Notes: generated by a model from the sequence alone, not told the origin. A stretch of DNA of 64,000 nt from Candidatus Levyibacteriota bacterium (GCA_038254115.1 JBBSGK010000003.1:9624-73623); one strand, 5' to 3'; shown: positions 26,748-55,125, counted from the stretch's first letter. Numbers and translations are program-made.

Positions 26748-26762
26748 CGTTATAATTAAATT

Positions 26763-27377: not shown

Positions 27378-27381
27378 TCTT

Positions 27382-27693
27382 ATGAAAAAAAATAGAGCTC
27401 AAAAAGACATACTTTATCTTTCAATTTCATCTTTTGTGTTAGTTGTTTTATGGATTGGTTTTAATCTATATCATAACTACGTAACAACCACCATAGCACC
27501 TGATCTGCAACTTGAAATTGCGCCGATTGAGCCATCATTTAATACCGAAATAATCAATAATCTTAAGGCGCGCACGCGAATTGAGCCCCTTTATGAGTAC
27601 AAGAATAATCAAGCCAGCCCAACAGTAAGCCCTGATCCTGCCACTCAAGAAACATCTAAAGCAACTAATTCTGGCGAAAGGCGCGGACAATGA
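27382..27693 (+). CDS. small single-pass membrane protein (possible PilP-like accessory)
   Basis: 103 aa, one TM (LYLSISSFVLVVLWIGF), S/T/P-rich tail. Confidence 0.35.
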   Translation: MKKNRAQKDILYLSISSFVLVVLWIGFNLYHNYVTTTIAPDLQLEIAPIEPSFNTEIINNLKARTRIEPLYEYKNNQASPTVSPDPATQETSKATNSGERRGQ

Positions 27694-31251: not shown

Positions 31252-31304
31252 ACACTACTATAAGTCATTTGTCAACGGAGGTCAAAGCAATTACAATTAA
31301 TATT

Positions 31305-32951
31305 GTGTCTAGTTTGCTGAAAACTCATAAAGCTGCCTTTGGTGTCGCTTTTCTTATATTAATCGGCGCGTTTCTCCGTTGCTATAATTTAAATTGGGGG
31401 GCTCCATTTTATTTCCATCCGGATGAGCGCAATATCGCATCAAGCATTACTCAGCTTGTATTCCCGACTCAGATGAACCCTCATTTTTTTGCATACGGCT
31501 CTTTGCCAATCTACATCATTTATTTTAGCGGTATGGTTACGAATTTTTTTTCTTCGTGTCACTTATCAATTACAAATTGCAAATTGTATAATGTCGAATT
31601 TGGGCACGCAATAATTATCAGCCGTTTTTATTCTGCTTTATTCTCCACCTTACTTATTCCTTTTATTTTTCTACTTGGAAAAAAAATGCACGGTCCCAAA
31701 ACAGGCCTTACAGCAGCTTTCCTTGCAACCTTTAGCGCAGGATTTATTCAGTTTGCCCACTTCGGAACCTTTGAAATGTGGCTTACATTTTTCAGTGTTC
31801 TCCTTTTTTGGTTTTGCCTTGAAGAATTAAATAAAAAAAATATCCATCACCTTTTTATTCTGCCAGCTATTTTTGCAATACTTTTGGCAATCAAAGTATC
31901 GTCCATTGCGCTACTGCCTCTTCCGCTTCTTATGATACTAATAAAAAAGCAAAACTCCTCCAAAAAACTTAAAGAGATAATTTTATTTATTGTTACTTTA
32001 TCGATAGTTTACGCAGTGACCAATCCTTTCGTCTTTTTGACAACACAAGAATTTCTCTCAAGTATAAGATATGAAGGCGGCGTTGTATTGGGCACGCTGG
32101 ACGTTTTCTACACACAATCTTTTTATAACACTATGCCAATAGTTTTCCAATTTCTCAATATTTTCCCATTTCTATTAAATCCTCTTTTTACTATTATATT
32201 CATCCCTGCCTTTTTTTATCTAATCTATAAAGGGATTAAAACAAAAAACCTATTGTTTTTATTTCTTATTTCTTACTTCTTACTTCTTTTCCTCCCCCAA
32301 GCTTTTCTTTTTGCGAAATGGACACGATACATGGTGCCGACATTGCCATTTATCTACCTTATAGTTGCAATAGCATCTATTGATTTTCTCAATATGTTAT
32401 CTAAATCCAAACGAGTATTTAGTATAAAGTATTTCGTATTAAGTATTTTCATATTGTTCACTATTGCATTCGGGATTTCTTATTTCATAACCGCATTTGT
32501 AAAACCTGATACCCGAATCGAAGCAGGCAAATTTACTCAAGCCAAAATCCAGCAAACCAGAAGAGTTTTGACTGAGCCTTATGACTTAGGAATAATCCCT
32601 TTCAATTCCCATCTCCAATATATTAACTCATTCAATTTCTACAATTTGGATCCAGAAAATAATGCTTTAAATGAAGAACTAAAAACAAAAATTTTCCAAT
32701 CTGACTATATTATATTACCAAGCCAAAGGCTTTTAAAATCCCGTTTATTAAATCCAAATAAATTCCGAAAAGGTCATGGAATTTACTCTTTATTAACAAA
32801 AGAGGCGCTTGGCTACCAAAAAATTTATGAAACACCTTGTGATATTTTCTGCAAAATCACTTACCTAAATAGTCCGGTTTTTTCATTTGAGGAGACAGCA
32901 AGTGTATTTGAAAGACCCACTGTTTTTATATTTAAAAAAGTTGCCAAATGA
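31305..32951 (+). CDS. GT-C superfamily membrane glycosyltransferase (ArnT/PMT, GT39/GT83-like)
   Basis: multi-TM; N-terminal NWGAPFYFHPDERNIAS loop paralogous to the next gene; start set at in-frame GTG 31305 because ORF-track start 31104 would overlap the convergent gene. Confidence 0.55.
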   Translation: MSSLLKTHKAAFGVAFLILIGAFLRCYNLNWGAPFYFHPDERNIASSITQLVFPTQMNPHFFAYGSLPIYIIYFSGMVTNFFSSCHLSITNCKLYNVEFGHAIIISRFYSALFSTLLIPFIFLLGKKMHGPKTGLTAAFLATFSAGFIQFAHFGTFEMWLTFFSVLLFWFCLEELNKKNIHHLFILPAIFAILLAIKVSSIALLPLPLLMILIKKQNSSKKLKEIILFIVTLSIVYAVTNPFVFLTTQEFLSSIRYEGGVVLGTLDVFYTQSFYNTMPIVFQFLNIFPFLLNPLFTIIFIPAFFYLIYKGIKTKNLLFLFLISYFLLLFLPQAFLFAKWTRYMVPTLPFIYLIVAIASIDFLNMLSKSKRVFSIKYFVLSIFILFTIAFGISYFITAFVKPDTRIEAGKFTQAKIQQTRRVLTEPYDLGIIPFNSHLQYINSFNFYNLDPENNALNEELKTKIFQSDYIILPSQRLLKSRLLNPNKFRKGHGIYSLLTKEALGYQKIYETPCDIFCKITYLNSPVFSFEETASVFERPTVFIFKKVAK

Positions 32952-34684
32952 AACTTATATTTTCAAAAGAAAAATTGATTTTATTCTTAATCCTAATTCT
33001 TGCCGCTTTTTTCCGCTTCTATAACGTCAATTGGGATGGCGGACACCAACTGCATCCTGACGAGAGGGCTATTGTCATGACAGTTGATAAGCTTCAAATT
33101 CCAAAAAACTTTTCTGATTTTTTGAGACCGGAAAGCTCGTGGAATCCGAAATTTTTTGCTTATGGTAGTTTTCCGATGTATCTACTTTTTGCTACAGGAA
33201 ACATTGCCGGTATTTTCAATCCGCTGCTTGCGCACTACGGTTCAATTAACCTAATCGGGCGGATACTCTCAGCTTTTGCGGATATTGTTACGGTTTTTTT
33301 GATTTTCAAAATTTCACGCAAACTTTTTAATTCCTCAATTGGTTACCTAGCAGCATTTTTTTATACTGTAAGCGTTCTACCCATTCAGCTTTCGCATTTT
33401 TTTGCTGTCGATACCTTATTAACCTGCTTTATAACTGCAACTCTTTATTTGCTGATCTTGTTTTATGAAAAACCCACATCTTATAAATCTCTCCTAATTG
33501 GTCTTTTTTTCGGCCTTGCGCTTGCCACCAAAATTAGCGCGCTGGTTTTATTGGTTTCAATAGGTACTGCGCTTATTGCCGATTTTATTCTGATTTTTAT
33601 AAAAAATCCCCATAAGCCAACGCATTGGTTGCCGAATTTGCCTGCTTTTTTAAAACACCTACTGCAATACGCGTTTCTTATTTTCTCAACTACTTTTATT
33701 GCTTTTATTTTTTTTGAGCCTTATGCCGTAATTGATTTTAAAAATTTTTGGGTCCAAACGCTCCAGCAATCGGCATTGACCAAGGATCCTTTTTACTTTC
33801 CATACACCCTTCAATATGTCGGTAAAATCCCCTATGCCTATGAATTCAAAAATGTTTTTCTTTGGGGACTTGGGCCAGTATTGGGAATACTAACGTTACT
33901 GGGAATGTTTTATTTTATTTATCTAAATTTTAAAAAAGGCCGGAGCCCACAGTTTACAAAGGCATTAATTATCTTAATATTTGTGGTTTCTTATGTTGCT
34001 GTTGTTGGCCGCTTTGCCGTTGGATTTATGCGCTATATGTTACCCGTATATCCTTTTTTTGCCCTCTTTGCATCTTTGCCCTCCTACCACTTTTATCAAA
34101 TTCTAAATAACCGCATAAAAAATATTTACACGCTTTTGGTTATTAGTTATTTGTTATTCGTTATTGTTTTAATCTGGCCTCTTAGCTTTATGCATATATA
34201 TAGCAAAAATAATACCAGAGTTGATGCCACTCTCTGGATAAATCAATTCATTCCGAAAGGCAAAACTGTGGCAATTGAACATTGGGACGATGGATTACCT
34301 CTGACTGATCAATCAAACTATAACATCCTTACATTGACTCTGTATGACCCTGATACGCAGCAAAAGTGGGAAACGATCAATCAACAGCTTAGGCATTCTG
34401 ACTACATAATTATAGCCTCAAATAGACTCTATACTCCTCTTCTGAGATTAACAGATTGTCAAGCACTACCACCTGATAGATGCTATCCTAAAACTTCTGC
34501 TTATTATAAAGATCTATTTGCTGAAAAACTTGGATTTCAAAAAGTTGCTGAATTCACAAACTATCCAACTGTTCCTATGCTAAATCTTCCTATAGATGAT
34601 CAGGTTGCAGACGAATCTTTTACTGTCTACGATCATCCAAAAGTAATGATCTTTCAAAAAACTGCCTCTCGTAGTAGAATATAG
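32948..34684 (+). CDS. GT-C superfamily membrane glycosyltransferase, paralogue of the preceding gene
   Basis: 578 aa, >10 TM; YNVNWDGGHQLHPDERAIVM loop motif; 4-nt overlap with upstream gene. Confidence 0.55.
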   Translation: MKLIFSKEKLILFLILILAAFFRFYNVNWDGGHQLHPDERAIVMTVDKLQIPKNFSDFLRPESSWNPKFFAYGSFPMYLLFATGNIAGIFNPLLAHYGSINLIGRILSAFADIVTVFLIFKISRKLFNSSIGYLAAFFYTVSVLPIQLSHFFAVDTLLTCFITATLYLLILFYEKPTSYKSLLIGLFFGLALATKISALVLLVSIGTALIADFILIFIKNPHKPTHWLPNLPAFLKHLLQYAFLIFSTTFIAFIFFEPYAVIDFKNFWVQTLQQSALTKDPFYFPYTLQYVGKIPYAYEFKNVFLWGLGPVLGILTLLGMFYFIYLNFKKGRSPQFTKALIILIFVVSYVAVVGRFAVGFMRYMLPVYPFFALFASLPSYHFYQILNNRIKNIYTLLVISYLLFVIVLIWPLSFMHIYSKNNTRVDATLWINQFIPKGKTVAIEHWDDGLPLTDQSNYNILTLTLYDPDTQQKWETINQQLRHSDYIIIASNRLYTPLLRLTDCQALPPDRCYPKTSAYYKDLFAEKLGFQKVAEFTNYPTVPMLNLPIDDQVADESFTVYDHPKVMIFQKTASRSRI

Positions 34685-34687
34685 GCA

Positions 34688-35725
34688 ATGATTAAAAAGG
34701 TCCTCATTACCGGCGGAACCGGATTTTTGGGTGTCCATCTGGCAAGATATTTATTAAAAAAAGGCTATAAGGTTACGCTTTTTGACTTAAGCGAGCTGGA
34801 TGCGAAAGATCTAATTGGAAAAGTAAATGTAATATTAGGCGACATAAGAAATAGTAAAGCAGTCGACAAAGCGCTTACAGGACAAGATTATGTTGTTCAT
34901 GCTGCTGCTGCCCTACCAATACAACTGGATAAAAAAATAATCTTCGGTGTAAATATTGACGGCACAAAAAATATCCTAAGAGCAGCTCTTAAAAATAAGG
35001 CTAAGCGCTTGGTCTTTATTTCATCAACCGCAGTTTATGGTGTCCCAAAACATCTTCCCGAAACAGAAACAGCACCGCTTGATCCAATAGGTAATTATGG
35101 GGTCTCAAAAATTGAGGGAGAAAAACTATGTTTGGAGTATCAGAAAAAGGGATTACAAGTAAATATTATCCGCCCCAAAACTTTTTTGGGAACGGAAAGG
35201 CTCGGGGTATTTGAATTATGGTTTGAGGCTATATACAGCAATAAAAGAGTATTTATTTTGGGCGATGGACATAATAAATACCAACTTCTTGCAGTGACAG
35301 ATGTCATAGCTGCAATAGAAAAAGCTTTAATTTCAAAGGCAAATGGAGAAATATTCAATATCGGAGCAGAAAAATTTGGGACCTGGAGATCGGATCTTGG
35401 CTTTGTCGTAAAACATGCAAAATCAAAATCAAAAATCACCTCGCTCCCAACTCTGCCTTCTCAACTTATTTTACAATTGCTTGAGACACTTAGACTTTCG
35501 CCAATTGCCGCTTGGCATTACAAAACCATGCCTGTTGACTCGTATGTTTCAATTGATAAAGCAAAAAAGCTTCTAAAATGGGCTCCTAAAAAATCAAATC
35601 AGGATTTGTTCCTTGAAAGTTACATATGGTATAAACAAAACAGAGGGAAAGTTTTGGGCCGGACCGGCAACACGCATAGAGTCGGCTGGAATTTTAAGAT
35701 ACTCAATTTAATTTCAAGGTTTTAG
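34688..35725 (+). CDS. NAD-dependent sugar epimerase/dehydratase (extended SDR)
   Basis: VLITGGTGFLGVHL Rossmann motif; YGVSK catalytic YxxxK. Confidence 0.85.
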   Translation: MIKKVLITGGTGFLGVHLARYLLKKGYKVTLFDLSELDAKDLIGKVNVILGDIRNSKAVDKALTGQDYVVHAAAALPIQLDKKIIFGVNIDGTKNILRAALKNKAKRLVFISSTAVYGVPKHLPETETAPLDPIGNYGVSKIEGEKLCLEYQKKGLQVNIIRPKTFLGTERLGVFELWFEAIYSNKRVFILGDGHNKYQLLAVTDVIAAIEKALISKANGEIFNIGAEKFGTWRSDLGFVVKHAKSKSKITSLPTLPSQLILQLLETLRLSPIAAWHYKTMPVDSYVSIDKAKKLLKWAPKKSNQDLFLESYIWYKQNRGKVLGRTGNTHRVGWNFKILNLISRF

Positions 35726-35736
35726 GCTTCAGCAAT

Positions 35737-36312
35737 ATGAATATTGGTTTTGATTTAGATAAAATTTTTATTGATTATCCGCCTTTTGTGTCACCCCGTG
35801 TAATGGACAAACTTTATAAAAAGAAGGACAACGGCGTACTGCTTTATAGAATCCCGTCTTACCCTGAGCAGCTATTAAGACGCGCATCTCACATGCCATT
35901 TCTTAGGCCTGCAATTAAACAAAATTTGGAGTTTCTAAGAAGAATTTCTAAAAAAGATAATAAGCTCTATCTTATATCTAGCCGTTTTAAGTTCCTCGAG
36001 AAACGTACTGCCAAGCTCATAAAGCGGTACGAATTAGATCAAATATTTGATGAGATGTTTTTTAACTATGCCAACTTTCAGCCCCATATCTTCAAGCAGG
36101 AAATTATCAACAACTTGAATCTTGATATCTATGTGGATGATGACCTTTCTTTAATAAGGCACGCAGCAAAAACTAATGTTAAAACTAAATTCTTCTGGCT
36201 AAATACTTTCGGGGAAAAACATATTTTGCCCCAAAACATATTCGAAATCTCAACACTCGAAGAAATATTTAAATTACAAAATCAGAAATCCGAATATCGA
36301 AATCCGAAATAA
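35737..36312 (+). CDS. HAD-superfamily-like hydrolase (tentative)
   Basis: N-terminal GFDLDKIF resembles HAD motif I (DxD); YVDDD near C-terminus resembles motif IV; 3' end encoded by a CCGAAAT heptamer array. Confidence 0.35.
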   Translation: MNIGFDLDKIFIDYPPFVSPRVMDKLYKKKDNGVLLYRIPSYPEQLLRRASHMPFLRPAIKQNLEFLRRISKKDNKLYLISSRFKFLEKRTAKLIKRYELDQIFDEMFFNYANFQPHIFKQEIINNLNLDIYVDDDLSLIRHAAKTNVKTKFFWLNTFGEKHILPQNIFEISTLEEIFKLQNQKSEYRNPK

Positions 36313-36420
36313 TTTTCGTAATTACAATTTCATAACTGTTGAATGATTTGAGGATTTGAGATTGTTTCGAATTCCTGCCTGCCGGAAGGCAAGGTCGAGC
36401 TTTGTGCTTCGAATTTGAGT
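36283..36420. repeat. heptamer arrays (CAGAAAT CCGAATA TCGAAAT CCGAAAT; ATTTGAG units) plus a GC-rich bulged hairpin (36378-36394) in the HAD-like/DUF2298 spacer
   Basis: first array encodes the C-terminus of the HAD-like gene. Confidence 0.55.
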
Positions 36421-36427
36421 ATAACTT

Positions 36428-38632
36428 ATGATTCCATCTGATATTCACGCAGTTTTGCAGTGGTGGTTGATCATCCTTCTTTTGGGAAGTGGTTTTTTGC
36501 CTCTCACCTTTCTGCTGTTTGATAAATTTTTTGACCGGGGATATATTTTTTCAAAAATCTTTGGAATTGCTTTTACCTCTTATGCAATTTTTTTACTTGG
36601 AGTTTTACATATAGCACCGTTTAATCAACTCTTCTCTATCATTATATTTCTCGTTATTTCAGCTTGGTTTTTTGCGCTGAGTCCAATAAGATTGGAGTTG
36701 ATTTCGATTTTAAAATCAAATTTAAAAATATTTATTTTTGAAGAACTACTTTTTCTAGCGGCTCTGTTTTTCTGGGCATATATTCATACGTTTAATCCCG
36801 ACATTCATGGCCTTGAAAAATTCATGGACTTTGGTTTTATAAACTCATTACTTAGGTCCAATTATTTCCCGCCTAAAGACATGTGGTTTACCCCATACCC
36901 TATCAACTATTATTATTTTGGGCACTTATCAACGGCTGTATTAACCAAGTTATCAGGTGTTCCTGCAAGAATTACTTTCAATCTAATGCTCTCAACTATA
37001 TTTGCGTTTTGTCTGAGCGAGACTTTTTCTTTGGGGGCAAATCTTTATGTTTTTATGCAAAATAATAAAAAGGTGTCACTTATCAAATCTTTTGTCACAG
37101 GCCTTTTGACAGCCTCTCTTGTTACTTTTTCAGGAAATCTTCATATCCTTTATACATTCTTCAAGCCTTACACCGGAGAAAATCCGGTTCCCTTATGGCA
37201 GTTGCCTTTTATGCCCTTTAGTTTTCCCAACTCTTATTGGTACCCAAATGCAACCCGCTTTATCCATAACACGATTCATGAATTCCCCATTTACTCCTGG
37301 GTAGTTGCGGACCTGCACGGACATGTTTTGGATATTCCTTTCGTTCTGCTAACAGTCGCCGTGCTGCTTTCAATATTTATATCCAAATCTGAAACAAGCC
37401 CAGCTACTCTAAATGCAAACAACAAACATTCTTTGAATTTAAAATATTTTAATTTTGATATTGTTTCAAGTTTAAATATTAAAATTCCATATTTACTACT
37501 AATTGGTTTCCTTCTCGCAATCATGTATATGACCAATGCGTGGGACGGAGGAATTTATCTGCTGCTTGCCTCCCTTGTGCTTTTTTCACTCTATTACAAG
37601 AGACTATCTACGTTCTTTTTTTCTCTTTTTGTAGTTTTTATAAGCTTGATTGCATTTTCCATGCCATATAGTTATTTTTTTAAGCCCTTTGCCTCAGGGA
37701 TAGGCGTACTTTGTGCGCCTAACTTTCTAACTAAAATAGGTAAACTGGGTCCATTTCTTTTTGAGAAGGAACATTGTCAGCATTCATTCTGGTGGCAATT
37801 ACTTATTCTTTACAGCTTTTTCTATTTTTTTGTTATTTCTTTCGGAATTTTTGCATATCGCGCAAAAAAATTCTTAAAAACAGATATATTTATATTTCTT
37901 CTTATCATTCTGTCTACATTTCTTATAATCTTGCCTGAATTCATTTACCTCAAAGATATTTATCCCGCACACTATAGAGCCAATACGATGTTCAAGCTGG
38001 TTTTTCAATCGTTCATCATGCTCTCTATTTCAACGGGATATATTATTACAAGAATAGTGTCCAATATTAGATTGAAATCTTTACGTGCTGGTAAAAAAGT
38101 ACTATTTATTAGTTATCTATTATTAGTTAGCGGTTTAATCTCCCTTGTTCTGACTTATCCATTCCTCGCAATTAGATCCTATTATGGTGATCTGAAAACA
38201 CAAAAAAATCTTGATGGGACTGTCTATCTTCAAACACTTTATCCTTATGATTACGAAGCAATTTCGTATATAAACAAAAATATAAAAAGCCAGCCCGTCA
38301 TTCTTGAAGCGCAAGGTGACTCATATACAGATTTTGGGAGGATTTCAGCAAATACAGGACTCCCAACTGTCCTCGGCTGGACTGTGCATGAATGGCTCTG
38401 GCGGGGAACATATGATATTCCTGCACCAAGAATTGATGAGATCAAAATAATGTATGAAACTCAGGATTTAAATATTGCTAAAAACCTGCTCAAGAAATAC
38501 AAGATCACATATATATTCATAGGGTCAATGGAATTTCAAAAATACCCTACGCTTTCTGAACCCAAATTTCAAAAGCTTGGAAAACTAATTTACCAAAATC
38601 AGAACACTAAAATCTACAAAATCTCCTATTGA
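36428..38632 (+). CDS. DUF2298 (Chlor_Arch_YYY domain) polytopic membrane protein, putative GT-C-like glycosyltransferase
   Basis: 734 aa, >15 TM helices; conserved PINYYYFGH triple-Tyr motif; family size and topology match. Confidence 0.55.
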   Translation: MIPSDIHAVLQWWLIILLLGSGFLPLTFLLFDKFFDRGYIFSKIFGIAFTSYAIFLLGVLHIAPFNQLFSIIIFLVISAWFFALSPIRLELISILKSNLKIFIFEELLFLAALFFWAYIHTFNPDIHGLEKFMDFGFINSLLRSNYFPPKDMWFTPYPINYYYFGHLSTAVLTKLSGVPARITFNLMLSTIFAFCLSETFSLGANLYVFMQNNKKVSLIKSFVTGLLTASLVTFSGNLHILYTFFKPYTGENPVPLWQLPFMPFSFPNSYWYPNATRFIHNTIHEFPIYSWVVADLHGHVLDIPFVLLTVAVLLSIFISKSETSPATLNANNKHSLNLKYFNFDIVSSLNIKIPYLLLIGFLLAIMYMTNAWDGGIYLLLASLVLFSLYYKRLSTFFFSLFVVFISLIAFSMPYSYFFKPFASGIGVLCAPNFLTKIGKLGPFLFEKEHCQHSFWWQLLILYSFFYFFVISFGIFAYRAKKFLKTDIFIFLLIILSTFLIILPEFIYLKDIYPAHYRANTMFKLVFQSFIMLSISTGYIITRIVSNIRLKSLRAGKKVLFISYLLLVSGLISLVLTYPFLAIRSYYGDLKTQKNLDGTVYLQTLYPYDYEAISYINKNIKSQPVILEAQGDSYTDFGRISANTGLPTVLGWTVHEWLWRGTYDIPAPRIDEIKIMYETQDLNIAKNLLKKYKITYIFIGSMEFQKYPTLSEPKFQKLGKLIYQNQNTKIYKISY

Positions 38633-38669: not shown

Positions 38670-38996
38670 ATGTTTCAACCTTGGGGAAATTGTGTTCAAG
38701 ATGGAGTTGCAACGCTCCGGTGCCTTCCTGTCATTTTTCATAACGTAGTAAACGGTGCTTTAATATTTGTAGGAGTTGTTGCTCTATTTCTTATAATTTA
38801 TTCCGGTATCAGGCTGATCCTATCAGGCGGTGATCCCAAACAAGTCGAAGCAGCCCGGAAAATTATGAACTACGCAATACTGGGCGCCATACTTGTCCTA
38901 TCTTCTTTTGCAATTTTGTACTTTATCGCCTATGTTACCAACTCTAAAGACTGCATTAGCAATATTGAATCTATCAGCACGGGGGGATGCAAATAA
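38670..38996 (+). CDS. VirB2/TrbC-like T4SS pilin (tentative)
   Basis: 108 aa: leader, then two hydrophobic helices separated by a short polar loop (SGGDPKQVEAARK), the VirB2/TrbC architecture; located immediately upstream of VirB3/VirB4-like genes. Confidence 0.45.
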   Translation: MFQPWGNCVQDGVATLRCLPVIFHNVVNGALIFVGVVALFLIIYSGIRLILSGGDPKQVEAARKIMNYAILGAILVLSSFAILYFIAYVTNSKDCISNIESISTGGCK

Positions 38997-39100
38997 TTAT
39001 CCATAAGTTTTCACAAGCGAGCCTTACCATGTATTCCGTTTGACCTACTTTGTAGGAGTTGCATTGCTATTTTTCACGTTATACACTTTTTGTACTAGCA

Positions 39101-40387
39101 ATGGACCAACACCCAATACCACAAAACGTAACAGGGTTTCAATTTAAACTTATAGGGGCGATGACTGTCAAACAATTTGGCTATGTTGCAGTAGGAGTAA
39201 TTGCGGCATTCGTTACTTACTATATACCTATACATGGATTCTTTGCGATAATTTTTAAAATCTTTATGATTCCTCTCCTAGGAGCAAGCGGACCCGTGCT
39301 GGCATTTGTTCCTGTTGACGGCAGACCAATCGATGTAATGACAGGCAATTTTGTAAAAGCTCTTTTATCTCCAAATCAATATGTGTATCACAAGGGTGTT
39401 AAAAAGTTTAGCTTTTCAACCGTATCCCTCTCCAAGCCAAAGCCCACATCGGCTGAACACAAAGCGCCCAGTACCCCAAAGCAAAAAATGATTAATGAAA
39501 GAGGACATGAATTACAAAAACTTTTAATAAGAAGTTCCGGGACAAAAATAAAAAACGCTCAGGATGAACATGAAGCTGCATTTCTTAACTCTATTTTGTC
39601 AACCCAACCGGCAGCTGCGCCTCTCCCTGCCTCAACTCATTCTCCTCTGCCCACAGTCTCTGTGGAATTACCAACTCCCGAGCCTAAAGTTGCGGAAACT
39701 AAGCCACTAATTATTTCACCGCCTACAAATAAACCGACTCCAGAGATTCTTTCCGAAAAGGAGGAAGCTCTAAAAAAACAATTGGATTTTACCAAGCGGG
39801 AAGAGACATCTCCGCATTCTACAACGGATCTTTCCGCAATTCATCAAAAAGCGGGTATTTTAGAAAAACAGGTTCAGGAAATTCATACGCAGAAACAGGC
39901 GCTCGAGGAAGAAATTCTGCAATTAAAAAAACAGCTTTCAACTCAGCAAACAACGACTACTTCCCCAGCTGCAAAAAACGCTATCGTAAGCACGCCTACT
40001 CCCTTCCCCCCCCTTAAGCAACAACCCCCACATGTACGAAGCGTCCCAAAAGAACAAAACAAGCGCCTTGGAATTTTTGTATCTGATACTCCAAATGTAG
40101 TCTCGGGCATGGTTAAGGATGCGCGGGGAAATGTGCTACCCAACATTCTTGTTGAAATAAAAGACAAGGCGAGCAATCCAGTTAGGGCATTCAAAACAAA
40201 CGCTCTTGGCAACTTTGCATCGGCAACGCCACTTGCAGCAGGAACTTATACGATTACGCTTGAAGATTTGAAAAAGCAGCATACATTTGATTCAATTCAG
40301 ATTACAGCAAATGACCAAATTATGCTTCCTATTGAAATCATATCTTATGACAAACGTGAAGCCCTGCGAAAGGATTTGTTTAGCTAA
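39101..40387 (+). CDS. PrgI/VirB3-like membrane domain fused to a coiled-coil, Pro-rich linker and a C-terminal carboxypeptidase-regulatory-like (Cna-B-type) beta-sandwich domain
   Basis: N-terminus FQFKLIGAMTVKQFGYVAVGVIAAF... resembles PrgI family (IIGPLTLRQ.IYL.IGGG) two-TM module; C-terminus GMVKDARGNVLPNILVEIKD...TNALGNFAS...AGTYTITL; start chosen at ATG 39101. Confidence 0.45.
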   Translation: MDQHPIPQNVTGFQFKLIGAMTVKQFGYVAVGVIAAFVTYYIPIHGFFAIIFKIFMIPLLGASGPVLAFVPVDGRPIDVMTGNFVKALLSPNQYVYHKGVKKFSFSTVSLSKPKPTSAEHKAPSTPKQKMINERGHELQKLLIRSSGTKIKNAQDEHEAAFLNSILSTQPAAAPLPASTHSPLPTVSVELPTPEPKVAETKPLIISPPTNKPTPEILSEKEEALKKQLDFTKREETSPHSTTDLSAIHQKAGILEKQVQEIHTQKQALEEEILQLKKQLSTQQTTTTSPAAKNAIVSTPTPFPPLKQQPPHVRSVPKEQNKRLGIFVSDTPNVVSGMVKDARGNVLPNILVEIKDKASNPVRAFKTNALGNFASATPLAAGTYTITLEDLKKQHTFDSIQITANDQIMLPIEIISYDKREALRKDLFS

Positions 40388-40390
40388 GCT

Positions 40391-41068
40391 ATGAGCGCTG
40401 CCCAAAAAATTCATGCGTCAACCCAAAAGTTTACTGAGATAGTAGACTTTGTTGAAAACGTGGTTGTTATGGAGGGAGGCAGCGCATGTCTTGTAATTGA
40501 AATTACAGCAAGTAATTTTGCTCTTTTGTCCAAAAGGGAACAGGACAGCAGAATTTTTTCATACGCATCTCTTCTTAATTCCCTATCCTTCCCTATTCAA
40601 ATATTAATACGCAATAAAAGAATTGACATTACCTCATACATAAAGGACCTTGAGGATGTTATTAAAAGCAGCAAAAATCCACGGCTTCAGACATATATCG
40701 GTTATTACCGTGATTTTGTTCAGGAGATGGTAACTGTCAACGTTGTTTTAAACAAGTCTTTTTACATAATTATTCCTTTTTCTTCGCTTGAGATGGGGAT
40801 CTCAGGCGCAAAACAAGCGACGCAAAAAAATCAAAAAACAAATGCACAGACGAAGAATCTACCTGAAGGAGCAGCAAAAAGCCTGCAGTCAAAGGCCCAA
40901 ACAGTACTTACACAATTGCAAAAATTTGCAGTGTCTGCGAAAATTCTCGAGCGCGAAGATTTAATTAAACTCTTTTATGACATTTACAATAATGGGGCAA
41001 ATATCGAAGTCGAGCAGATTGAGCCGGCTGGCGGAGCATCAATTGTAACCGGAGGAGCAAAAACATGA
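40391..41068 (+). CDS. hypothetical protein resembling the extreme N-terminal module of Gram-positive-type VirB4 ATPases (possible split VirB4, part 1)
   Basis: VVMEGGSACLVIEITASNFALLSKREQDSRIFSYASLL...QILIRNKRID resembles the start of PrgJ/Tn916-Orf16-type VirB4 proteins; stop overlaps next start (ATGA). Confidence 0.35.
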   Translation: MSAAQKIHASTQKFTEIVDFVENVVVMEGGSACLVIEITASNFALLSKREQDSRIFSYASLLNSLSFPIQILIRNKRIDITSYIKDLEDVIKSSKNPRLQTYIGYYRDFVQEMVTVNVVLNKSFYIIIPFSSLEMGISGAKQATQKNQKTNAQTKNLPEGAAKSLQSKAQTVLTQLQKFAVSAKILEREDLIKLFYDIYNNGANIEVEQIEPAGGASIVTGGAKT

Positions 41069-43245
41069 AATTGCCTTTTTTTAAAAAATCATCAACCCTC
41101 CCCGCAGGTACACCTTCTGCTGCTAGCGGCATGAAGCAAACCGCAGCCCCTACCAAAACCGCCGGGGCAAGCAAATCTATTGAGTCTGTAGAAAAAGGCC
41201 TAACTTCCATAATTGATATTATTGCTCCTTCGTCAGTTGAGGTTGATTTTCGCTACATCCGCGTTGGAGACTCTCTATACACAACGCTTTTTATCGCAGG
41301 GTATCCCCGCTATGTTTCCCCTGGTTGGCTTCAGCCAATTATTGATTACGATCACACATTGGACATTTCTATGTTCTGTTACCCAACGTCGTCATCAGAC
41401 GTTCTCACAGATTTGAAGCGGAAAATTGGGGAAATGCAGGCAACGCTTTCATCTGATGCGGAGTCGGGAAAAGTAACGGATCCCACTGTTGAAGCGGCGC
41501 TTGAGGATGCTCTGGGACTTCAGGAGGAACTTGCGAAAGGAATTGAGAGATTTTTCCAGTTTGGATTTTACATTACTGTCTCTGCTCTCGACCTGCCCGA
41601 ACTTCAGCAAACTGTAAAAGAACTTCAAACCACCCTTGGCTCTCTTCTTCTTGCTGCAAAAACAGCAACTCTTCAAATGGAAGAAGGATTCAAGTCAACC
41701 TTGCCCTTGGGACTTGATAGACTCTATATTACCCGCAATATGGACACATCATCCCTTGCGTCAACCTTTCCTTTTACCTCGGCTATTCTGACGCAGAATA
41801 AAGGGGTAATGTATGGTGTTAACCAGCAAAATGGATCCCTGATTATTTTTGACCGTTTTTCTTTGGAAAACGCCAATGAGGTAGTCTTGGGTAAATCAGG
41901 TGCCGGAAAATCTTATTGCATTAAACTTGAGATTGCGCGGCAATTTATGCTTGGGGCTGAGGTAATTGTAATTGATCCCGAGGGTGAATACGAGACATTA
42001 ACGCCTGCATTAGGTGGGGAAGTTGTTGATTTCTCATCAAGTTCTGAGATAAAAATTAATCCTTTTGACCTTTCTGATGTTTACGAGGAAGGCGAGAATG
42101 AATTGGGACTCAAAATCTTGTCTTTGCATGGATTATTAAAACTGATTACTGGCGATTTAGACGCAGAACATGACGCAATTTTGGACAGGGCGCTTATTGA
42201 GTGCTACCGCCAAAAAGGAATTACGACAGATCCACTGACACAAAGAAAGCAACCTCCACTTATGGAAGACTTATACAAAACTCTTTTGGGAATGGAGACC
42301 CAACCGGCAAAAGATCTCGCATATAGATTAGAAAAATTCATCAAAGGATCAGCTGCCGGTATATTTAACCAGCAGTCAAATTTTGAGATCAATAACCCGC
42401 TTACTGTTTTTTCAATCCGCAATCTGGAAGAGGAACTCCGCCCTGTTGCTATGCATATTATTCTTGATTTTGTCTGGACAAAGATAAAAAAGAATTTAAA
42501 AAAGCGTATTCTAATTCTGGACGAAGGCTGGTATATGATGAAGTATCAGGATTCTGCCTCATTTGCATACTCTATCGCCAAGCGGGCCCGAAAATACTAC
42601 CTCGGCATGACAACCGCAACGCAGGATGTTGAGGATTTTCTTAAAAATGAATATGGAAAGGCTGTTTTGACCAATTCTTCAATCCAAATCCTTTTAAAAC
42701 AAGGCACTGCTGAGGTTGACATGATTGCCAATACTTTTTACCTTTCCGAAGGTGAGAAAGCGTTACTTTTATCATCAGATGTAGGGGAGGGATTATTTTT
42801 TGCAGGACAGAACCATGTAGCTATGAAAGTTTTTGCTGCTCCTTTTGAACATGAATTAATCACATCAAACCCAATTGAGCTTTTAAAGCGCCAAGAGGAC
42901 AAAGAAGCTGCTATTACCCAGTCCAGACTTGAAGATGGCGGACCCGTTCAGGCTACTATCCCTCACGCAGAACCACCCATTCCTCCTACGCCAGCGCCTT
43001 CCGCTCCCATTAATCCTGCTATAGCTTCAATTGACACGCCCCCGGTGGTTACAAATGGACCCACAGCATTACCTTCTCAATCACCATATAGCGCTTCGAA
43101 TCCACATGCATCACCAGTTTCTCCCGTTGCTTCATCACCGCCTGATACACATCCCTCGCCTGAAATTATTCCACCCGTTATGTCAACTTCTACACAATCA
43201 CCCACCGCCCCCATTGTGACAACGCCAGTTTTACCAAAGGTTTAA
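41065..43245 (+). CDS. VirB4/TrbE/CagE-family T4SS ATPase with Pro/Ser/Thr-rich C-terminal extension
   Basis: Walker A VLGKSGAGKSY, Walker B ILDEGWYMM (DEAW-type), motif C RKYYLGMTTATQDVEDF; N-terminal CagE_TrbE_VirB-like region IIAPSSVEVDFRYIRVGDSLYTTLFIAGYPRYV. Confidence 0.85.
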   Translation: MKLPFFKKSSTLPAGTPSAASGMKQTAAPTKTAGASKSIESVEKGLTSIIDIIAPSSVEVDFRYIRVGDSLYTTLFIAGYPRYVSPGWLQPIIDYDHTLDISMFCYPTSSSDVLTDLKRKIGEMQATLSSDAESGKVTDPTVEAALEDALGLQEELAKGIERFFQFGFYITVSALDLPELQQTVKELQTTLGSLLLAAKTATLQMEEGFKSTLPLGLDRLYITRNMDTSSLASTFPFTSAILTQNKGVMYGVNQQNGSLIIFDRFSLENANEVVLGKSGAGKSYCIKLEIARQFMLGAEVIVIDPEGEYETLTPALGGEVVDFSSSSEIKINPFDLSDVYEEGENELGLKILSLHGLLKLITGDLDAEHDAILDRALIECYRQKGITTDPLTQRKQPPLMEDLYKTLLGMETQPAKDLAYRLEKFIKGSAAGIFNQQSNFEINNPLTVFSIRNLEEELRPVAMHIILDFVWTKIKKNLKKRILILDEGWYMMKYQDSASFAYSIAKRARKYYLGMTTATQDVEDFLKNEYGKAVLTNSSIQILLKQGTAEVDMIANTFYLSEGEKALLLSSDVGEGLFFAGQNHVAMKVFAAPFEHELITSNPIELLKRQEDKEAAITQSRLEDGGPVQATIPHAEPPIPPTPAPSAPINPAIASIDTPPVVTNGPTALPSQSPYSASNPHASPVSPVASSPPDTHPSPEIIPPVMSTSTQSPTAPIVTTPVLPKV

Positions 43246-43264
43246 ATTTTGTTACTATTAAAAT

Positions 43265-45088
43265 ATGGATGACACAGATACATTGGAACCCGAAGCAGGA
43301 GAGGAGGCCTCAGATTCAACCCCTGAAGAAAGTCAGGAGCCTGACCAAAGTAGCAACAGTAGCCAAGAAACTCAAACAAATCAAAGCCCACAATCCAGTG
43401 GATCTGGCCAAAAAGACCAAACGAGGCAAAAACCCGGCGGCATGAGTAGATTGGGAAAGCAGTTTACAAAAGGAGCCGGCGGTCCCGGCGGAGGAGGGGG
43501 CCCTGGAAAGGACATAGCCAAAAAGGGGCTAGGTAAACTTGGGATTGGCAAGAAAGATAGCGGGGAATCCCGTGGGCAAGAGTTAAAAAACCGCGGGAAA
43601 GAAGCCGGGAAGAAGATGGGGAAAAAAGCGGGAAAAAAAGTTGGAAATTTTGCTGCCCAGCTTGGAAAGAAAGGGGTTGCTGCAGCTGTAGAAAATCCTT
43701 ATGTTGCAGGAGCACTAGCCATTATACTACTTATTGTTGTCCTAATATTTATTATTATCCAAGGTAACGCTGCAGCAGGAGATGAGGCAAATCCATTAAC
43801 TATTACCAAATCAGGTCCCGCTGAGGCAAAAGTAAATGATAAGCTTACTTACCAAATTGCTGTTGCGTATGCAGGAACCGTACAGGACATAACTGTCACT
43901 GACCATGTCCCTGACGGAGCTGAATTTGATCCCTCAACTCCTCCCCCCGCCCACTATGATCCTGCAACGAGGACTGTTACATGGAGCATAAAAGAAATAA
44001 GTCCTCCTAACGCTGGAGGTGGTAACCCTTCAGCGAACCAAGTAAACATCATAGGCGACTCTCTAACCGATCAATCAAGGGCTGATATACAAGATCAGCT
44101 CCCCGGAGCTGTTATTGACGCGAAGACTAGCCGTCCATGGAGCGCTGGTGTAAGCATAGTTTCCGACCTTAAAAATAGCAATAAGCTGACTCCCGTCGTT
44201 GTATTTGCTCTTGGCACAAATAACTCTTCTTTGTCCACTGGGGATATAGATAATCTTTTAAATGCTTCCCAGGGCAGTCAGATCATTCTTGTTACTACTT
44301 ATAACCTCGTTCACACCGATTGGGCGAACAATGTAAATAGCACTTTAAAGGCTGCAGCAAGCGCTCATGCCGACAGGATAAAGATTGCTGATTGGGCTGC
44401 AGTAGCCAACCCCGGACTTATTGATAATTCTGATGGGCTTGGAGTGCATCCAACGATTCCATCCGGTAATCAGGCATTTGCAAAGGTTATTGCAAGCGCA
44501 GTATCAGGCGGCGCAAGCGGAGGAATAAGCCATCCAAACACTACCCTCACTCTTAACTTAAAAGCGACCACAGATAATACTTATGTAATCAACCAAGCAG
44601 TGGCAACAGCTATAGGCGGCGTGCCAGACAGCAGCGGTGGGGGTGGAGGCGGCGGGGGTGGGCCTGTTGACGGAAATTATGTTCCCCCGAACCAAAACGA
44701 TTGTGGCGGAAAGTACAAATTTAACAATCCTGTTGGAAACTTCGGTGATCCGAATTGCAACTTTGACAAAAATGCCCTTCATGAAATGCTGACGCAGCAA
44801 GATCCCGCAAATGCTGATTTTTGGTTTTTAAAAGTCATTCCTTGCGAGAGCAGTTATGATCCCAACTCATATTCTTCGCATCAGTCAATCGGCACACCTG
44901 ATCTAGCGGGAGCGTGGGGATTATATCAAATGGGAAGCAGTAAGCCTCCAGGCAGTCCGCCGCCCTCGCCTGGCAATAACGGACCTAATGATCGGGGGGA
45001 TGTTAATTGGCCTGTTCAGACAAGCAACGCTGTTACATACAGTAAGAAAATCAGTAGCATAGGAGCATATTGGGCCTGTGGAAGATGA
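43265..45088 (+). CDS. multidomain envelope protein: disordered cytoplasmic N-terminus, TM, DUF11 repeat domain, SGNH/GDSL esterase domain, C-terminal family-1 lytic transglycosylase (SLT)-like domain
   Basis: TM AGALAIILLIVVLIFIII; DUF11-like LTITKSGPAEAKVNDKLTYQIAV...ITVTDHVPDGAEF; GDSL motif IIGDSLTD plus DGLGVHPT (DxxH); SLT motif CESSYDPNSYSS...AGAWGLYQM (ES...AGAxGLMQ). Confidence 0.65.
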   Translation: MDDTDTLEPEAGEEASDSTPEESQEPDQSSNSSQETQTNQSPQSSGSGQKDQTRQKPGGMSRLGKQFTKGAGGPGGGGGPGKDIAKKGLGKLGIGKKDSGESRGQELKNRGKEAGKKMGKKAGKKVGNFAAQLGKKGVAAAVENPYVAGALAIILLIVVLIFIIIQGNAAAGDEANPLTITKSGPAEAKVNDKLTYQIAVAYAGTVQDITVTDHVPDGAEFDPSTPPPAHYDPATRTVTWSIKEISPPNAGGGNPSANQVNIIGDSLTDQSRADIQDQLPGAVIDAKTSRPWSAGVSIVSDLKNSNKLTPVVVFALGTNNSSLSTGDIDNLLNASQGSQIILVTTYNLVHTDWANNVNSTLKAAASAHADRIKIADWAAVANPGLIDNSDGLGVHPTIPSGNQAFAKVIASAVSGGASGGISHPNTTLTLNLKATTDNTYVINQAVATAIGGVPDSSGGGGGGGGGPVDGNYVPPNQNDCGGKYKFNNPVGNFGDPNCNFDKNALHEMLTQQDPANADFWFLKVIPCESSYDPNSYSSHQSIGTPDLAGAWGLYQMGSSKPPGSPPPSPGNNGPNDRGDVNWPVQTSNAVTYSKKISSIGAYWACGR

Positions 45089-45129
45089 CAATTTGTGTTA
45101 ATCAAATATAGTGTATAAATAAATCATAT

Positions 45130-45699
45130 ATGAAAATCAAAAAAGAACATCTGATCTTGATTATATTCTCAGCAGTGATGCTTCTTATAGTTTTTGCTAT
45201 TGCGTACTTGGCATTGACAACTCCCACGAAACCGAATAATAAACCTATTGGTACTATTTCTCCTTCCCCTGTTTACACTGGCCACATTGCTATTTCTCCT
45301 ACTCCTGTAAATCCAGGAGTACCACCTGTCTCTTACAGTTCTGATGCAACTGATAGGCTAATAGAAAAAGTCCAAAACCATCCGCAGCTTTCGGATTCTG
45401 ATATTGCTGCAAAGCAAAAAATACTCTCTTTTTTGCCACAGGGCAAAACATCCGGATATGTATATCAGTCCTCAACTGTTCAAATTGAATACCTCAAATC
45501 CCCGGACGCTTTCCTGGCCGAAATCCTGACCATTGATATCGCGCAATCTAAAAAAGACGCAGTCAACTGGTTTAAGGTACAAGGAATGAGTCAAAAGGGT
45601 ATTTGCGACCTCCCTGTTTCTTTTTATCTCAATTCTAGAGTCGCAAATCAATTAAGAAATTTAAATATTAAATTTAGTCCGTTGGCTGAAGGGTGTTAA
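45130..45699 (+). CDS. secreted/membrane-anchored hypothetical protein
   Basis: 189 aa, N-terminal signal anchor, Pro-rich linker. Confidence 0.4.
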   Translation: MKIKKEHLILIIFSAVMLLIVFAIAYLALTTPTKPNNKPIGTISPSPVYTGHIAISPTPVNPGVPPVSYSSDATDRLIEKVQNHPQLSDSDIAAKQKILSFLPQGKTSGYVYQSSTVQIEYLKSPDAFLAEILTIDIAQSKKDAVNWFKVQGMSQKGICDLPVSFYLNSRVANQLRNLNIKFSPLAEGC

Positions 45700-54969: not shown

Positions 54970-55125
54970 AAAGATTATCTTGTCAGGACAATCCATTCTA
55001 GTATTTTTTATTAATATCCCAACCTGTTACTCAATATTTTTTGCATCTAGCAACATGAAAACAAGTTTATAAAACATTAAACTTATCACTTATAACTTCC
55101 CTTTGTTTGTTGTATTATTAAGGAA

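What the first reader, a model, noticed from the sequence alone, without database searches (positions are those of the whole stretch)
38670..43245. Type IV secretion-like module immediately next to the replication origin: VirB2-like pilin, PrgI/VirB3-like fusion, split VirB4
Four consecutive plus-strand genes encode:
- a 2-TM pilin-like protein with VirB2/TrbC architecture
- a protein whose N-terminus resembles the PrgI (VirB3 analogue) two-TM module but is extended by coiled-coil, Pro-rich and CarboxypepD_reg-like domains
- a 225-aa protein resembling the first about 100 residues of Gram-positive VirB4 (PrgJ-type)
- a clear VirB4 ATPase (GKSGAGKS, DEGW, TATQ motifs)

No relaxase, coupling protein (VirD4) or VirB6 is seen in the window. 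The module could serve DNA uptake or host interaction rather than conjugation, as proposed for some ultra-small bacteria.

GC content of 38.7-47.6 kb is visibly higher than the flanks, consistent with acquisition.
Basis: partly seen in the sequence, partly recalled or inferred. Interest (0 to 1): 0.7.

Follow-up and report, generated by a model that had tools for sequence, protein, structure and literature searches.

The report
Patescibacteria-type type IV secretion gene cluster

Summary
All four genes exist and carry the proposed signatures:
- a VirB2-like pilin (PF18895)
- a PrgI/VirB3-like protein with a C-terminal CarboxypepD_reg domain
- a TrsD-like protein equivalent to the detached VirB4 N-terminal domain
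- a CD1110-type VirB4 ATPase

They head a nine-gene plus-strand block (38670-48648) that also encodes cell-wall hydrolases and membrane-anchored accessory proteins. The block ends against dnaN-dnaA and the rpmH-rnpA-yidD-yidC-jag origin region.

No relaxase, coupling protein or VirB6 was found among the window ORFs scanned.

The cluster matches the Patescibacteria T4SS published in 2023-2025, including the origin proximity, the TrsD gene and the missing relaxase.

The "acquired island" reading fails:
- GC3 and codon usage equal the rest of the window.
- The extra GC sits at codon positions 1 and 2, reflecting Pro/Gly/Ala-rich proteins.
- The gene order recurs next to dnaN/dnaA in about 30 Levybacteria genomes.
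- VirB4 is more conserved than DnaA in 35 of 35 genomes.

Small additions:
- The PrgI-beta-sandwich fusion is found in most Microgenomatia relatives sampled.
- The Levybacteria pilins share four conserved cysteines.
- The same pilin-PrgI-TrsD-VirB4-hydrolase order occurs on Bacillota megaplasmids.

The parts
38670..38996 (+). VirB2-like T4SS pilin (108 aa). It has two TM helices joined by a conserved SGGDPK loop, no leader peptide, and four conserved Cys (two in the N-tail, two in the C-tail).
   Evidence: PF18895 scores 34.2 bits against a cut-off of 26.6. TM scan. Alignment of 36 homologues shows the Cys and loop motifs. It is the only pilin-like ORF in the window.
39101..40387 (+). PrgI/VirB3-like two-TM protein (428 aa) extended by a coiled-coil/Pro-rich linker and a C-terminal CarboxypepD_reg beta-sandwich. 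The longest ORF starts at a TTG at 39059; the conserved start is the ATG at 39101.
   Evidence: PrgI scores 32 bits (cut-off 27) and CarboxypepD_reg 38 bits (cut-off 32.3). Start position. Among 48 homologues, 47 have the PrgI domain and 42 have CarboxypepD_reg.
40391..41068 (+). TrsD-like protein (225 aa), equivalent to a detached VirB4 N-terminal domain. Its stop overlaps the virB4 start (ATGA).
   Evidence: NF045975 model positions 104-238, E 3e-7; NF041427 TrsD, E 8e-4. Natural fusions: L038 (832 aa), P0200 (787 aa) and Carboxydocella (754 aa). The ATGA overlap is also seen in 19 related loci.
41065..43245 (+). VirB4 ATPase (726 aa) lacking its N-terminal domain. It has a low-complexity N-linker and a Pro/Ser/Thr-rich C-terminal tail of about 110 aa.
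   Evidence: NF045971 scores 385.6 bits (cut-off 325) over model positions 179-734. 4ag5 matches at E 2.5e-46. More than 8000 homologues were found, 70-90% identical across Levybacteria.
43265..45088 (+). Membrane-anchored multidomain cell-wall enzyme (607 aa): a Lys/Gly-rich N-terminal region, one TM, a DUF11 repeat, an OatA-type SGNH domain (aa 258-414) and a C-terminal lysozyme-like domain. It is the likely functional equivalent of VirB1.
   Evidence: DUF11, E 5e-5. 5ug1/5ufy OatA SGNH, E 1.4e-7. A profile of the C-terminal domain hits C-type lysozymes at E 1e-5, with an invariant Glu in the conserved ES motif aligned to the lysozyme ES motif. The C-terminal domain is conserved directly after virB4 in about 22 loci.
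45130..45699 (+). Accessory protein (189 aa): N-terminal TM, Pro-rich linker and a domain of about 120 aa with two invariant Cys. Function unknown.
45693..46304 (+). Accessory protein (203 aa): N-terminal TM plus a beta-rich domain of about 120 aa. The same domain occurs twice in 47593-48648.
46311..47591 (+). Secreted M23 peptidoglycan endopeptidase (426 aa) with a Gly/Pro linker and a C-terminal HExxH metallopeptidase-like region. In the relatives examined it is seen at this position only in this lineage.
   Evidence: PF01551 scores 68.1 bits. HELGH can be read. tblastn finds no counterpart in the closest relatives L033 and L034.
47593..48648 (+). Accessory protein (351 aa): N-terminal TM plus two copies of the domain found in 45693-46304. 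Its 3' end overlaps the dnaN stop (convergent genes).
48639..51304 (-). Context: dnaN (48639-49748) and dnaA (49899-51263), with perfect DnaA boxes at 49830-49838 and 51296-51304. rpmH-rnpA-yidD-yidC-jag runs divergently from 51360.
   Evidence: Translations. Pfam YidC and Jag. DnaA boxes. The cumulative GC-skew minimum lies at about 45-50 kb.

Best explanation
The region is the chromosomal, vertically inherited type IV secretion system of a Candidatus Levybacteria (class Microgenomatia, Patescibacteria/CPR) genome. It belongs to the published Patescibacteria T4SS, which derives from the monoderm MPF-FATA conjugation machinery.

Shown here:
- Nine co-directional, tightly packed genes encode the system.
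- They are a VirB2-like pilin, a VirB3/PrgI membrane subunit carrying a conserved C-terminal beta-sandwich, the VirB4 motor split into a TrsD-like N-domain protein and the ATPase, a membrane-anchored lysozyme-like/SGNH wall enzyme, an M23 endopeptidase, and three single-pass membrane proteins of unknown fold family.
- The start/stop overlap between the TrsD-like gene and virB4 suggests translational coupling.

Inferred:
- TrsD and VirB4 reassemble into a VirB4 hexamer docked on the VirB3 hairpin in the membrane.
- The hydrolases open the cell wall locally.
- The ATPase drives assembly of a VirB2 pilus or channel that contacts a host cell. This supports the epibiotic lifestyle by delivering or importing macromolecules, not by relaxase-dependent conjugation.
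- The position beside oriC is ancestral and may raise expression through gene dosage.
For: Family hits above the curated cut-offs for pilin, PrgI, CarboxypepD_reg, VirB4 and M23.

Evidence that VirB4 is split:
- ORF3 maps to VirB4_plasma model positions 104-238 and ORF4 to 292-893.
- Concatenating the two raises the score from 250.8 to 290.8 bits.
- Unsplit versions exist in L038, P0200 and Carboxydocella.
- TrsD lies directly upstream of virB4 in 57 of 61 loci, and the ATGA overlap is the commonest arrangement.

Taxon and inheritance:
- Most of the closest loci whose record names a lineage are Levybacteria/Levyibacteriota; several others carry generic or inconsistent MAG titles.
- Gene order up to dnaN-dnaA is conserved.
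- VirB4 identity exceeds DnaA identity in 35 of 35 genomes and the two correlate.
- GC3 and codon usage are native.

Literature:
- The same component set, the absent relaxase and the dnaA/dnaN proximity are described in PMC12102498.
- The T4SS and its pilins are essential for epibiotic growth of Southlakia epibionticum (PMC10633639; review PMC12857230).
- Tubular structures that may be T4SS pili were seen between parasite and host (bioRxiv 10.64898/2026.06.21.733656).
Against: - No VirB6-like channel protein, T4CP or VirB8-like protein was found in the 64 kb. The two accessory proteins modelled show no VirB8/NTF2-type match, so the membrane translocon is incomplete as seen here.
- 14 other Levybacteria loci carry a TrbL/VirB6-like gene upstream of their pilins that has no counterpart in the window.
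- Function is extrapolated from Saccharibacteria. There are no experimental data for Microgenomatia, and even in Saccharibacteria the substrate is unknown (PMC11665869).
- The positive-inside rule (read from the sequence) puts the beta-sandwich of the PrgI fusion in the cytoplasm. That is unexpected for this domain type and remains unexplained.
- No VirB4 phylogeny was computed here.
Confidence: 0.82

Rival explanations
1. A horizontally acquired genomic island or decayed integrative conjugative element inserted next to the origin.
For: Bulk GC of 38.7-47.6 kb is 0.428 against 0.395 for the window, and the immediate flanks are 0.31-0.36. The machinery descends from conjugative T4SSs (PMC12102498).
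Against: - GC3 is 0.335 against 0.346, and codon usage equals other blocks.
- There is no integrase, relaxase, tRNA or tandem-repeat array.
- The locus is syntenic next to dnaN/dnaA across Levybacteria and other Microgenomatia, and lies near dnaA/dnaN in Paceibacteria.
- VirB4 divergence tracks DnaA divergence.
- Any transfer would have been ancient, at the root of the phylum.
Confidence: 0.03
2. A DNA-uptake machine, like the H. pylori ComB or archaeal Ced T4SS-like importers, that supplies nucleotides or DNA to an auxotrophic cell.
For: - There is no relaxase or T4CP.
- A weak CedB hit was found (NF041017, E 5e-11, far below the cut-off).
- The idea is raised in the literature (PMC11665869).
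- Host RNA acquisition was reported for a cultivated Patescibacterium, and its authors associate VirB4 with macromolecule transfer.
Against: - In Southlakia, deleting comEC abolishes transformation but not viability, whereas the T4SS is essential. The essential role is therefore not transformation.
- No DNA-binding or nuclease component was identified in the module.
- The direction of transport cannot be read from sequence.
Confidence: 0.12
3. A non-secretory use of a HerA/FtsK-type ATPase, such as an anti-phage defence module.
For: PADLOC mad8 hit at 86 bits and weak DndH/HerA hits on the ATPase domain.
Against: The VirB4-specific model scores 385.6 bits. The other eight proteins have no PADLOC hit. 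The pilin, PrgI and TrsD partners are T4SS-specific.
Confidence: 0.01

Closest known systems
Patescibacteria-clade T4SS (Quinonero-Coronel et al. 2025, PMC12102498; Southlakia epibionticum SEML1_0006-0019, Wang et al. 2023, PMC10633639)
   Same: - VirB4 of MPF-FATA ancestry.
- TrsD homologue next to virB4.
- PrgI-type VirB3 and PF18895 VirB2-like pilin.
- Lysozyme and peptidase genes downstream of virB4.
- No relaxase.
- Location beside dnaA/dnaN in Microgenomatia and Paceibacteria.
- VirB6 scarce in Microgenomatia.
   Different: - There is one pilin at the locus rather than an array. Two more pilin genes lie about 41-43 kb away, just outside the window.
- PrgI carries a conserved extension of about 330 aa ending in a CarboxypepD_reg domain. 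A text search of the 2025 paper finds no mention of it.
- The Levybacteria pilins have four conserved Cys.
- The accessory proteins are lineage-specific.
T4SS-like loci on Bacillota megaplasmids (Geobacillus pGspE55-1, C. perfringens pJFP838A, a Pontibacillus plasmid, B. cereus plas2)
   Same: - The gene order is the same: PF18895 pilin(s), PrgI, TrsD-like protein, DUF87/CD1110 VirB4, a large protein, M23 peptidase.
- Most of these plasmids are typed non-mobilizable, meaning no relaxase.
   Different: - They are plasmid-borne.
- PrgI is short (about 100-116 aa) with no beta-sandwich.
- The TrsD-like protein is longer (274-318 aa).
- A TrbL/VirB6-like polytopic protein is present at the locus in Pontibacillus, with a weaker match in B. 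cereus.
- Sequence identity is only about 22-31%.
Gram-positive conjugative MPF-FATA systems (pGO1/pSK41 Trs, pCF10 Prg, pIP501 Tra, CTn2 CD1110)
   Same: VirB4 meets the CD1110-family cut-off. A PrgI family VirB3, a remote TrsD/TraD homologue and cell-wall hydrolases with M23 and lysozyme-like domains are present.
   Different: No relaxase, T4CP, VirB6 (PrgH) or VirB8-like (PrgL/TraM) subunit was detected. It has a VirB2-like pilin, which these systems are reported to lack (PMC12857230). It is chromosomal and fixed in the lineage.
Mycoplasma ICE T4SS (Mbov_0395 pilin-like protein, Mbov_0397 VirB4; NCBIfam NF045849 and NF045975)
   Same: A pilin-like two-TM protein is paired with a VirB4. The window pilin, ORF3 and ORF4 all hit these models.
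   Different: The hits fall far below the equivalog cut-offs (19.3 against 40; 250.8 against 590). VirB4 is a single polypeptide in the model. The ICE carries mobility genes.

Membership tests
Patescibacteria-clade T4SS (PMC12102498) | VirB4 of MPF-FATA type that falls inside the Patescibacteria clade | tested here: inconclusive
   The MPF-FATA-type CD1110 model is met at 385.6 bits (cut-off 325). Where the records of the nearest homologues name a lineage, it is mostly Levybacteria or another Patescibacteria group. No phylogeny was computed, so clade placement is inferred.
Patescibacteria-clade T4SS (PMC12102498) | TrsD homologue encoded next to virB4 | tested here: met
   ORF 40391-41068 overlaps the virB4 start and hits TrsD and the VirB4 N-terminal region.
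Patescibacteria-clade T4SS (PMC12102498) | PrgI-type VirB3 and VirB2-like pilin (PF18895) near virB4 | tested here: met
   Both exceed the Pfam gathering scores and lie directly upstream.
Patescibacteria-clade T4SS (PMC12102498) | No relaxase associated; chromosomal, near dnaA/dnaN | tested here: met
   No relaxase family hit among the window ORFs scanned. dnaN abuts the block. The rest of the genome was not available.
Patescibacteria-clade T4SS (PMC12102498) | VirB6-like polytopic subunit (essential in Southlakia; scarce in Microgenomatia) | tested here: not met
   No polytopic protein occurs in the block. There is no TrbL/VirB6 Pfam hit in the window. The VirB6-like proteins of related loci have no tblastn counterpart in the 64 kb.
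Conjugative MPF-FATA T4SS (pCF10/pIP501/pGO1/CTn2) | Relaxase and type IV coupling protein | tested here: not met
   None found among the ORFs scanned in the window. Elsewhere in the genome could not be tested.
Conjugative MPF-FATA T4SS (pCF10/pIP501/pGO1/CTn2) | VirB8-like (NTF2-fold) subunit such as PrgL or TraM | tested here: not met
NCBIfam NF045971 VirB4-like ATPase, CD1110 family | Score at or above the curated cut-off of 325 bits | tested here: met
   385.6 bits, but only model positions 179-734 of 752 are covered.
NCBIfam NF041427 TrsD/TraD family | Score at or above the curated cut-off of 200 bits | tested here: not met
   19.3 bits, E 8e-4, although the alignment is end to end (model 12-200 of 201). 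It is a remote homologue, not a member by the curated threshold.
Genomic island / ICE | Atypical synonymous composition, an integrase, a tRNA or repeat boundary, patchy distribution | tested here: not met
   GC3 and codon usage are native. There are no tRNAs, no integrase, and the locus is conserved and syntenic across the lineage.

The most novel reading that the evidence does not exclude
The pilin-VirB3-TrsD-VirB4-wall-hydrolase block may be a distinct, pilus-bearing, relaxase-independent subclass of monoderm T4SS shared by Patescibacteria chromosomes and Bacillota megaplasmids. If so, the VirB2-like pilin would be ancestral to that subclass. It would be neither a Patescibacteria-only exception nor a co-option from diderm systems, as recent papers leave open. 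Within Levybacteria the VirB3 subunit has also gained a conserved beta-sandwich extension, predicted to be cytoplasmic, that could stand in for a missing partner such as the coupling protein.
Probability: 0.35. Interest if true: 0.5.

Novelty: new member of a known kind. Interest (0 to 1): 0.27.

Why it matters
The Patescibacteria T4SS is one of the few machines shown to be essential for the epibiotic life of these ultra-small bacteria, and its substrate is still unknown. This locus adds no new kind of system. It is a clean Microgenomatia example that shows three things:
- The cluster is a slowly evolving core feature; its VirB4 is more conserved than DnaA.
- The split VirB4 can be tied to natural fused forms.
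- The nearest non-CPR counterparts, on Bacillota megaplasmids, already carry VirB2-like pilins. This bears on where the pilus of this system came from.

Tried and rejected
- Sequence and profile searches of the TrsD-like protein against PDB chains found nothing. Homology to the VirB4 N-domain therefore rests on NCBIfam alignments and natural fusions.
- The afdb50 fold library was unavailable.
- Promoter and terminator scans were no better than shuffled sequence.
- DnaA-box counts were not enriched window-wide (24 against about 17 expected), although perfect boxes flank dnaA.
- Rfam, tandem repeats and tRNA searches found nothing.
- PADLOC gave only generic ATPase hits.
- Exact look-up of the VirB4 contig failed. 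A neighbouring gene gave an overlapping contig that extends 4 kb beyond the window.
- The island hypothesis was considered and rejected.
- DUF2298 (36428-38632) was considered as a VirB6 substitute and rejected. It belongs to the YYY membrane-protein family and is linked to the locus only in the three closest relatives.
Full report
**Observation.** The four plus-strand ORFs exist as described.
- The 108-aa protein has two hydrophobic helices. It exceeds the Pfam gathering score for PF18895 T4SS_pilin (34.2 against 26.6). It does not hit PF04956 TrbC.
- The second ORF exceeds the cut-offs for PrgI (PF12666) at its N-terminus and for CarboxypepD_reg (PF13620) at its C-terminus.
- Its real start is the ATG at 39101. 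The motif MDQHPIPQ(D/N)VTGFQFKLIG begins the protein in relatives, several of which have a stop codon just upstream. This exact 428-aa product is on record in the public protein collection.
- The 225-aa ORF aligns to positions 104-238 of the NCBIfam Mycoplasma-ICE VirB4 model (E 3e-7). It aligns end to end to TrsD/TraD (E 8e-4).
- The 726-aa ORF meets the CD1110-family VirB4 cut-off (385.6 against 325 bits), but covers only model positions 179-734.
- Its ATPase domain matches the solved Thermoanaerobacter VirB4 domain 4ag5 at E 2.5e-46.

**Split VirB4.** ORF3 and ORF4 map to consecutive parts of one VirB4 model (104-238 and 292-893).
- Concatenating them raises the score from 250.8 to 290.8 bits.
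- Natural unsplit forms exist:
  - An 832-aa ORF in a Microgenomates genome (L038) aligns continuously to model positions 104-889.
  - A 787-aa representative, P0200, combines the TrsD region with a VirB4 that is 59% identical to the window's.
  - The 754-aa protein of Carboxydocella plasmid pCCELLA01 matches ORF3 over its first 171 residues (E 2e-15) and ORF4 over the rest (E 1e-73).
- The split form is the rule. TrsD sits directly upstream of virB4 in 57 of 61 related loci. The ATGA stop/start overlap seen in the window is the commonest arrangement.
- A scan of 1.84 billion cluster representatives found 1505 TrsD-like proteins. Nearly all of the best 150 are stand-alone.

**Extent of the module.** The four genes head a nine-gene block, 38670-48648, with gaps of -7 to 104 bp.
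- The gene after virB4 (607 aa) has one TM helix and a DUF11 repeat.
  - It has an SGNH domain like the C-terminal domain of the peptidoglycan O-acetyltransferase OatA (5ug1, E 1.4e-7).
  - It has a C-terminal domain whose family profile hits C-type lysozymes. An invariant Glu in the conserved ES motif aligns to the lysozyme ES motif (E 1e-5).
- A single-pass 189-aa protein follows.
- A single-pass 203-aa protein and a 351-aa protein with two copies of the same domain are also present.
- An M23 endopeptidase with an HExxH region lies between them.
- AF2 models of the 189-aa and 203-aa proteins are confident (pLDDT 81.5 and 79.4). Neither gives a VirB8/NTF2-type match.
- None of the nine proteins is polytopic.
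- No relaxase, T4CP or VirB6 family was detected among the window ORFs scanned.

**Origin context.** The block ends convergently against dnaN. Beyond it lie dnaA and the divergent rpmH-rnpA-yidD-yidC-jag genes. Perfect DnaA boxes lie on both sides of dnaA. The cumulative GC skew is at its minimum here.

**Taxon and inheritance.** A scan of one genome per species returned 61 loci. Most of the closest ones whose record names a lineage are Levybacteria/Levyibacteriota; several others carry generic or inconsistent MAG titles.
- The order pilin, PrgI fusion, TrsD, VirB4, lysozyme-like gene, 189-aa gene, then dnaN and dnaA recurs in about 30 of them.
- TrsD-VirB4 near dnaA/dnaN extends to other Microgenomatia and to Paceibacteria.
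- In 35 genomes carrying all the markers, VirB4 identity to the window (median 77%) exceeds DnaA identity (median 62%) every time. The two are correlated (Spearman 0.79, p 2e-8).
- This is the pattern of a slowly evolving, vertically inherited core gene.

**Island test.** Bulk GC is higher (0.428 against 0.395), but GC3 is not (0.335 against 0.346; p 0.8).
- Per-gene and pooled codon-usage distances are typical. 28 of 41 other nine-gene blocks deviate at least as much.
- The excess lies at codon positions 1 and 2. It matches Pro/Gly/Ala enrichment (22.8% against 17.9%) from low-complexity tails in VirB4, the PrgI fusion and the 607-aa protein.
- The island interpretation is rejected.

**Comparison with the literature.** Quinonero-Coronel et al. 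2025 (PMC12102498) describe this system across 3,035 Patescibacteria genomes.
- They report a monophyletic VirB4 clade nested in MPF-FATA.
- TrsD is the most abundant associated component and a remote homologue of the VirB4 N-terminus.
- They also report PrgI-type VirB3, PF18895/VirB2-like pilins and rare relaxases.
- VirB6 is scarce in Microgenomatia, and the locus lies close to dnaA/dnaN in Microgenomatia and Paceibacteria.
- Wang et al. 2023 (PMC10633639) showed that the Saccharibacteria T4SS and its pilins are essential for epibiotic growth, and that relaxase and coupling proteins are not recognisable.
- Reviews state that the function is still unknown.
- A 2026 preprint reports tubular structures at the host interface that may be T4SS pili.
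- Every headline feature of the finding is therefore already published.

**Small additions from this work.**
1. The PrgI-CarboxypepD_reg fusion is standard in Levybacteria and other Microgenomatia (PrgI in 47 of 48 homologues, CarboxypepD_reg in 42 of 48). The Paceibacteria loci sampled have short PrgI proteins of 133-194 aa. The 2025 paper does not mention this domain. By the positive-inside rule both termini should be cytoplasmic, which is odd for this beta-sandwich.
2. Levybacteria pilins share two Cys in the N-tail and two in the C-tail, plus an SGGDPK loop.
3. The genome has at least two more PF18895 pilin genes just beyond the window's left edge.
4. Fourteen other Levybacteria loci have a sub-threshold TrbL/VirB6-like polytopic gene about 5 kb upstream of their pilins. 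It has no counterpart in this window.
5. Bacillota megaplasmids carry the same order: PF18895 pilin(s), PrgI, TrsD-like protein, VirB4, a large protein, M23 peptidase.
   - Most of these plasmids are typed as non-mobilizable.
   - This suggests that the pilin belongs to a monoderm subclass and is not unique to Patescibacteria.

**Mechanism.**
- Shown: the gene content, the split motor and its fused counterparts, the wall-hydrolase domains, and conservation and native composition.
- Inferred:
  - TrsD and VirB4 reassemble on the VirB3 hairpin.
  - The hydrolases breach the wall.
  - A VirB2 pilus or channel is built and used for host interaction, not for relaxase-dependent DNA transfer.
  - The origin position may boost expression by gene dosage.
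- Not determinable here: the direction of transport and the cargo (effector export, or nucleic-acid or nutrient import).

**Verdict.** The system is a new member of a known and recently well-described kind, so interest is modest.

Noticed in passing
L062 9083-9484 (-) and 9541-9864 (-); about 1.8-2.6 kb beyond window position 1: Two more PF18895 T4SS pilin genes in the same genome: 133 aa with a Sec-type leader and a CPVGNFNPLC N-tail, and 107 aa without Cys. They lie on the far side of the ribosomal-protein operon, about 41-43 kb from virB4, next to a PDDEXK nuclease gene and a Trans_reg_C regulator gene.
   Followed up: partly
L063, L064, L065, L066, L067 (Bacillota plasmids): Geobacillus, C. 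perfringens, Pontibacillus and B. cereus megaplasmids carry pilin (PF18895)-PrgI-TrsD-like-VirB4-large protein-M23 in the same order as the window. Most are typed non-mobilizable. Carboxydocella has TrsD and VirB4 as one 754-aa protein. Reviews state that Gram-positive T4SSs lack VirB2-like pilins.
   Followed up: partly
L002-L012, L017, L030 and other loci, about positions 1-2000 of each locus: 14 other Levybacteria loci have a polytopic protein of 480-716 aa with a sub-threshold TrbL/VirB6 hit (E 5e-5, 23 bits against a cut-off of 25.9) about 5 kb upstream of their pilin genes. Two large minus-strand genes lie in between. None of these has a counterpart in the 64-kb window.
   Followed up: partly
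window 38670-38996: Levybacteria pilins have four conserved cysteines: C..ATLxCxP in the N-tail and C-I...C in the C-tail. These could form disulfides that staple the two extracellular tails. A more distant Microgenomates homologue (L038) lacks them.
   Followed up: partly
window 42900-43245 and 43265-43700: VirB4 ends in a Pro/Ser/Thr/Ala-rich tail of about 110 aa. The next protein begins with a Lys/Gly/Ser-rich low-complexity region of about 140 aa before its TM helix. These segments account for the local GC peak (0.47-0.48).
   Followed up: partly
window 46311-47591: The M23 + HExxH peptidase gene has no counterpart at this position in the closest relatives (L033, L034). It looks like a lineage-specific insertion into the variable region between virB4 and dnaN.
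   Followed up: no
window 47593-49748: The last module gene and dnaN have unusually low GC3 (0.188 and 0.230 against about 0.34 elsewhere), forming a local AT-rich patch where the two convergent genes overlap.
   Followed up: no
window 26211-29069: A PilO-like gene (26763-27377) lies with small neighbours and a 459-aa Big_13/fn3 surface protein. This is probably part of a type IV pilus cluster, the other envelope machine reported as essential in Saccharibacteria.
   Followed up: no
window 417-2258 (-): A 613-aa ORF at the end of the ribosomal-protein operon has no Pfam hit. The public gene call for it likewise carries no annotated family.
   Followed up: no
window 31104-38632 and 53377-57810: Envelope glycosylation and polymer genes flank the module: two PMT_2 glycosyltransferases, an epimerase, a DUF2298/YYY membrane protein, a Wzy_C ligase-like protein and a DUF4012 protein. 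The upstream set is shared only with the three closest relatives.
   Followed up: no
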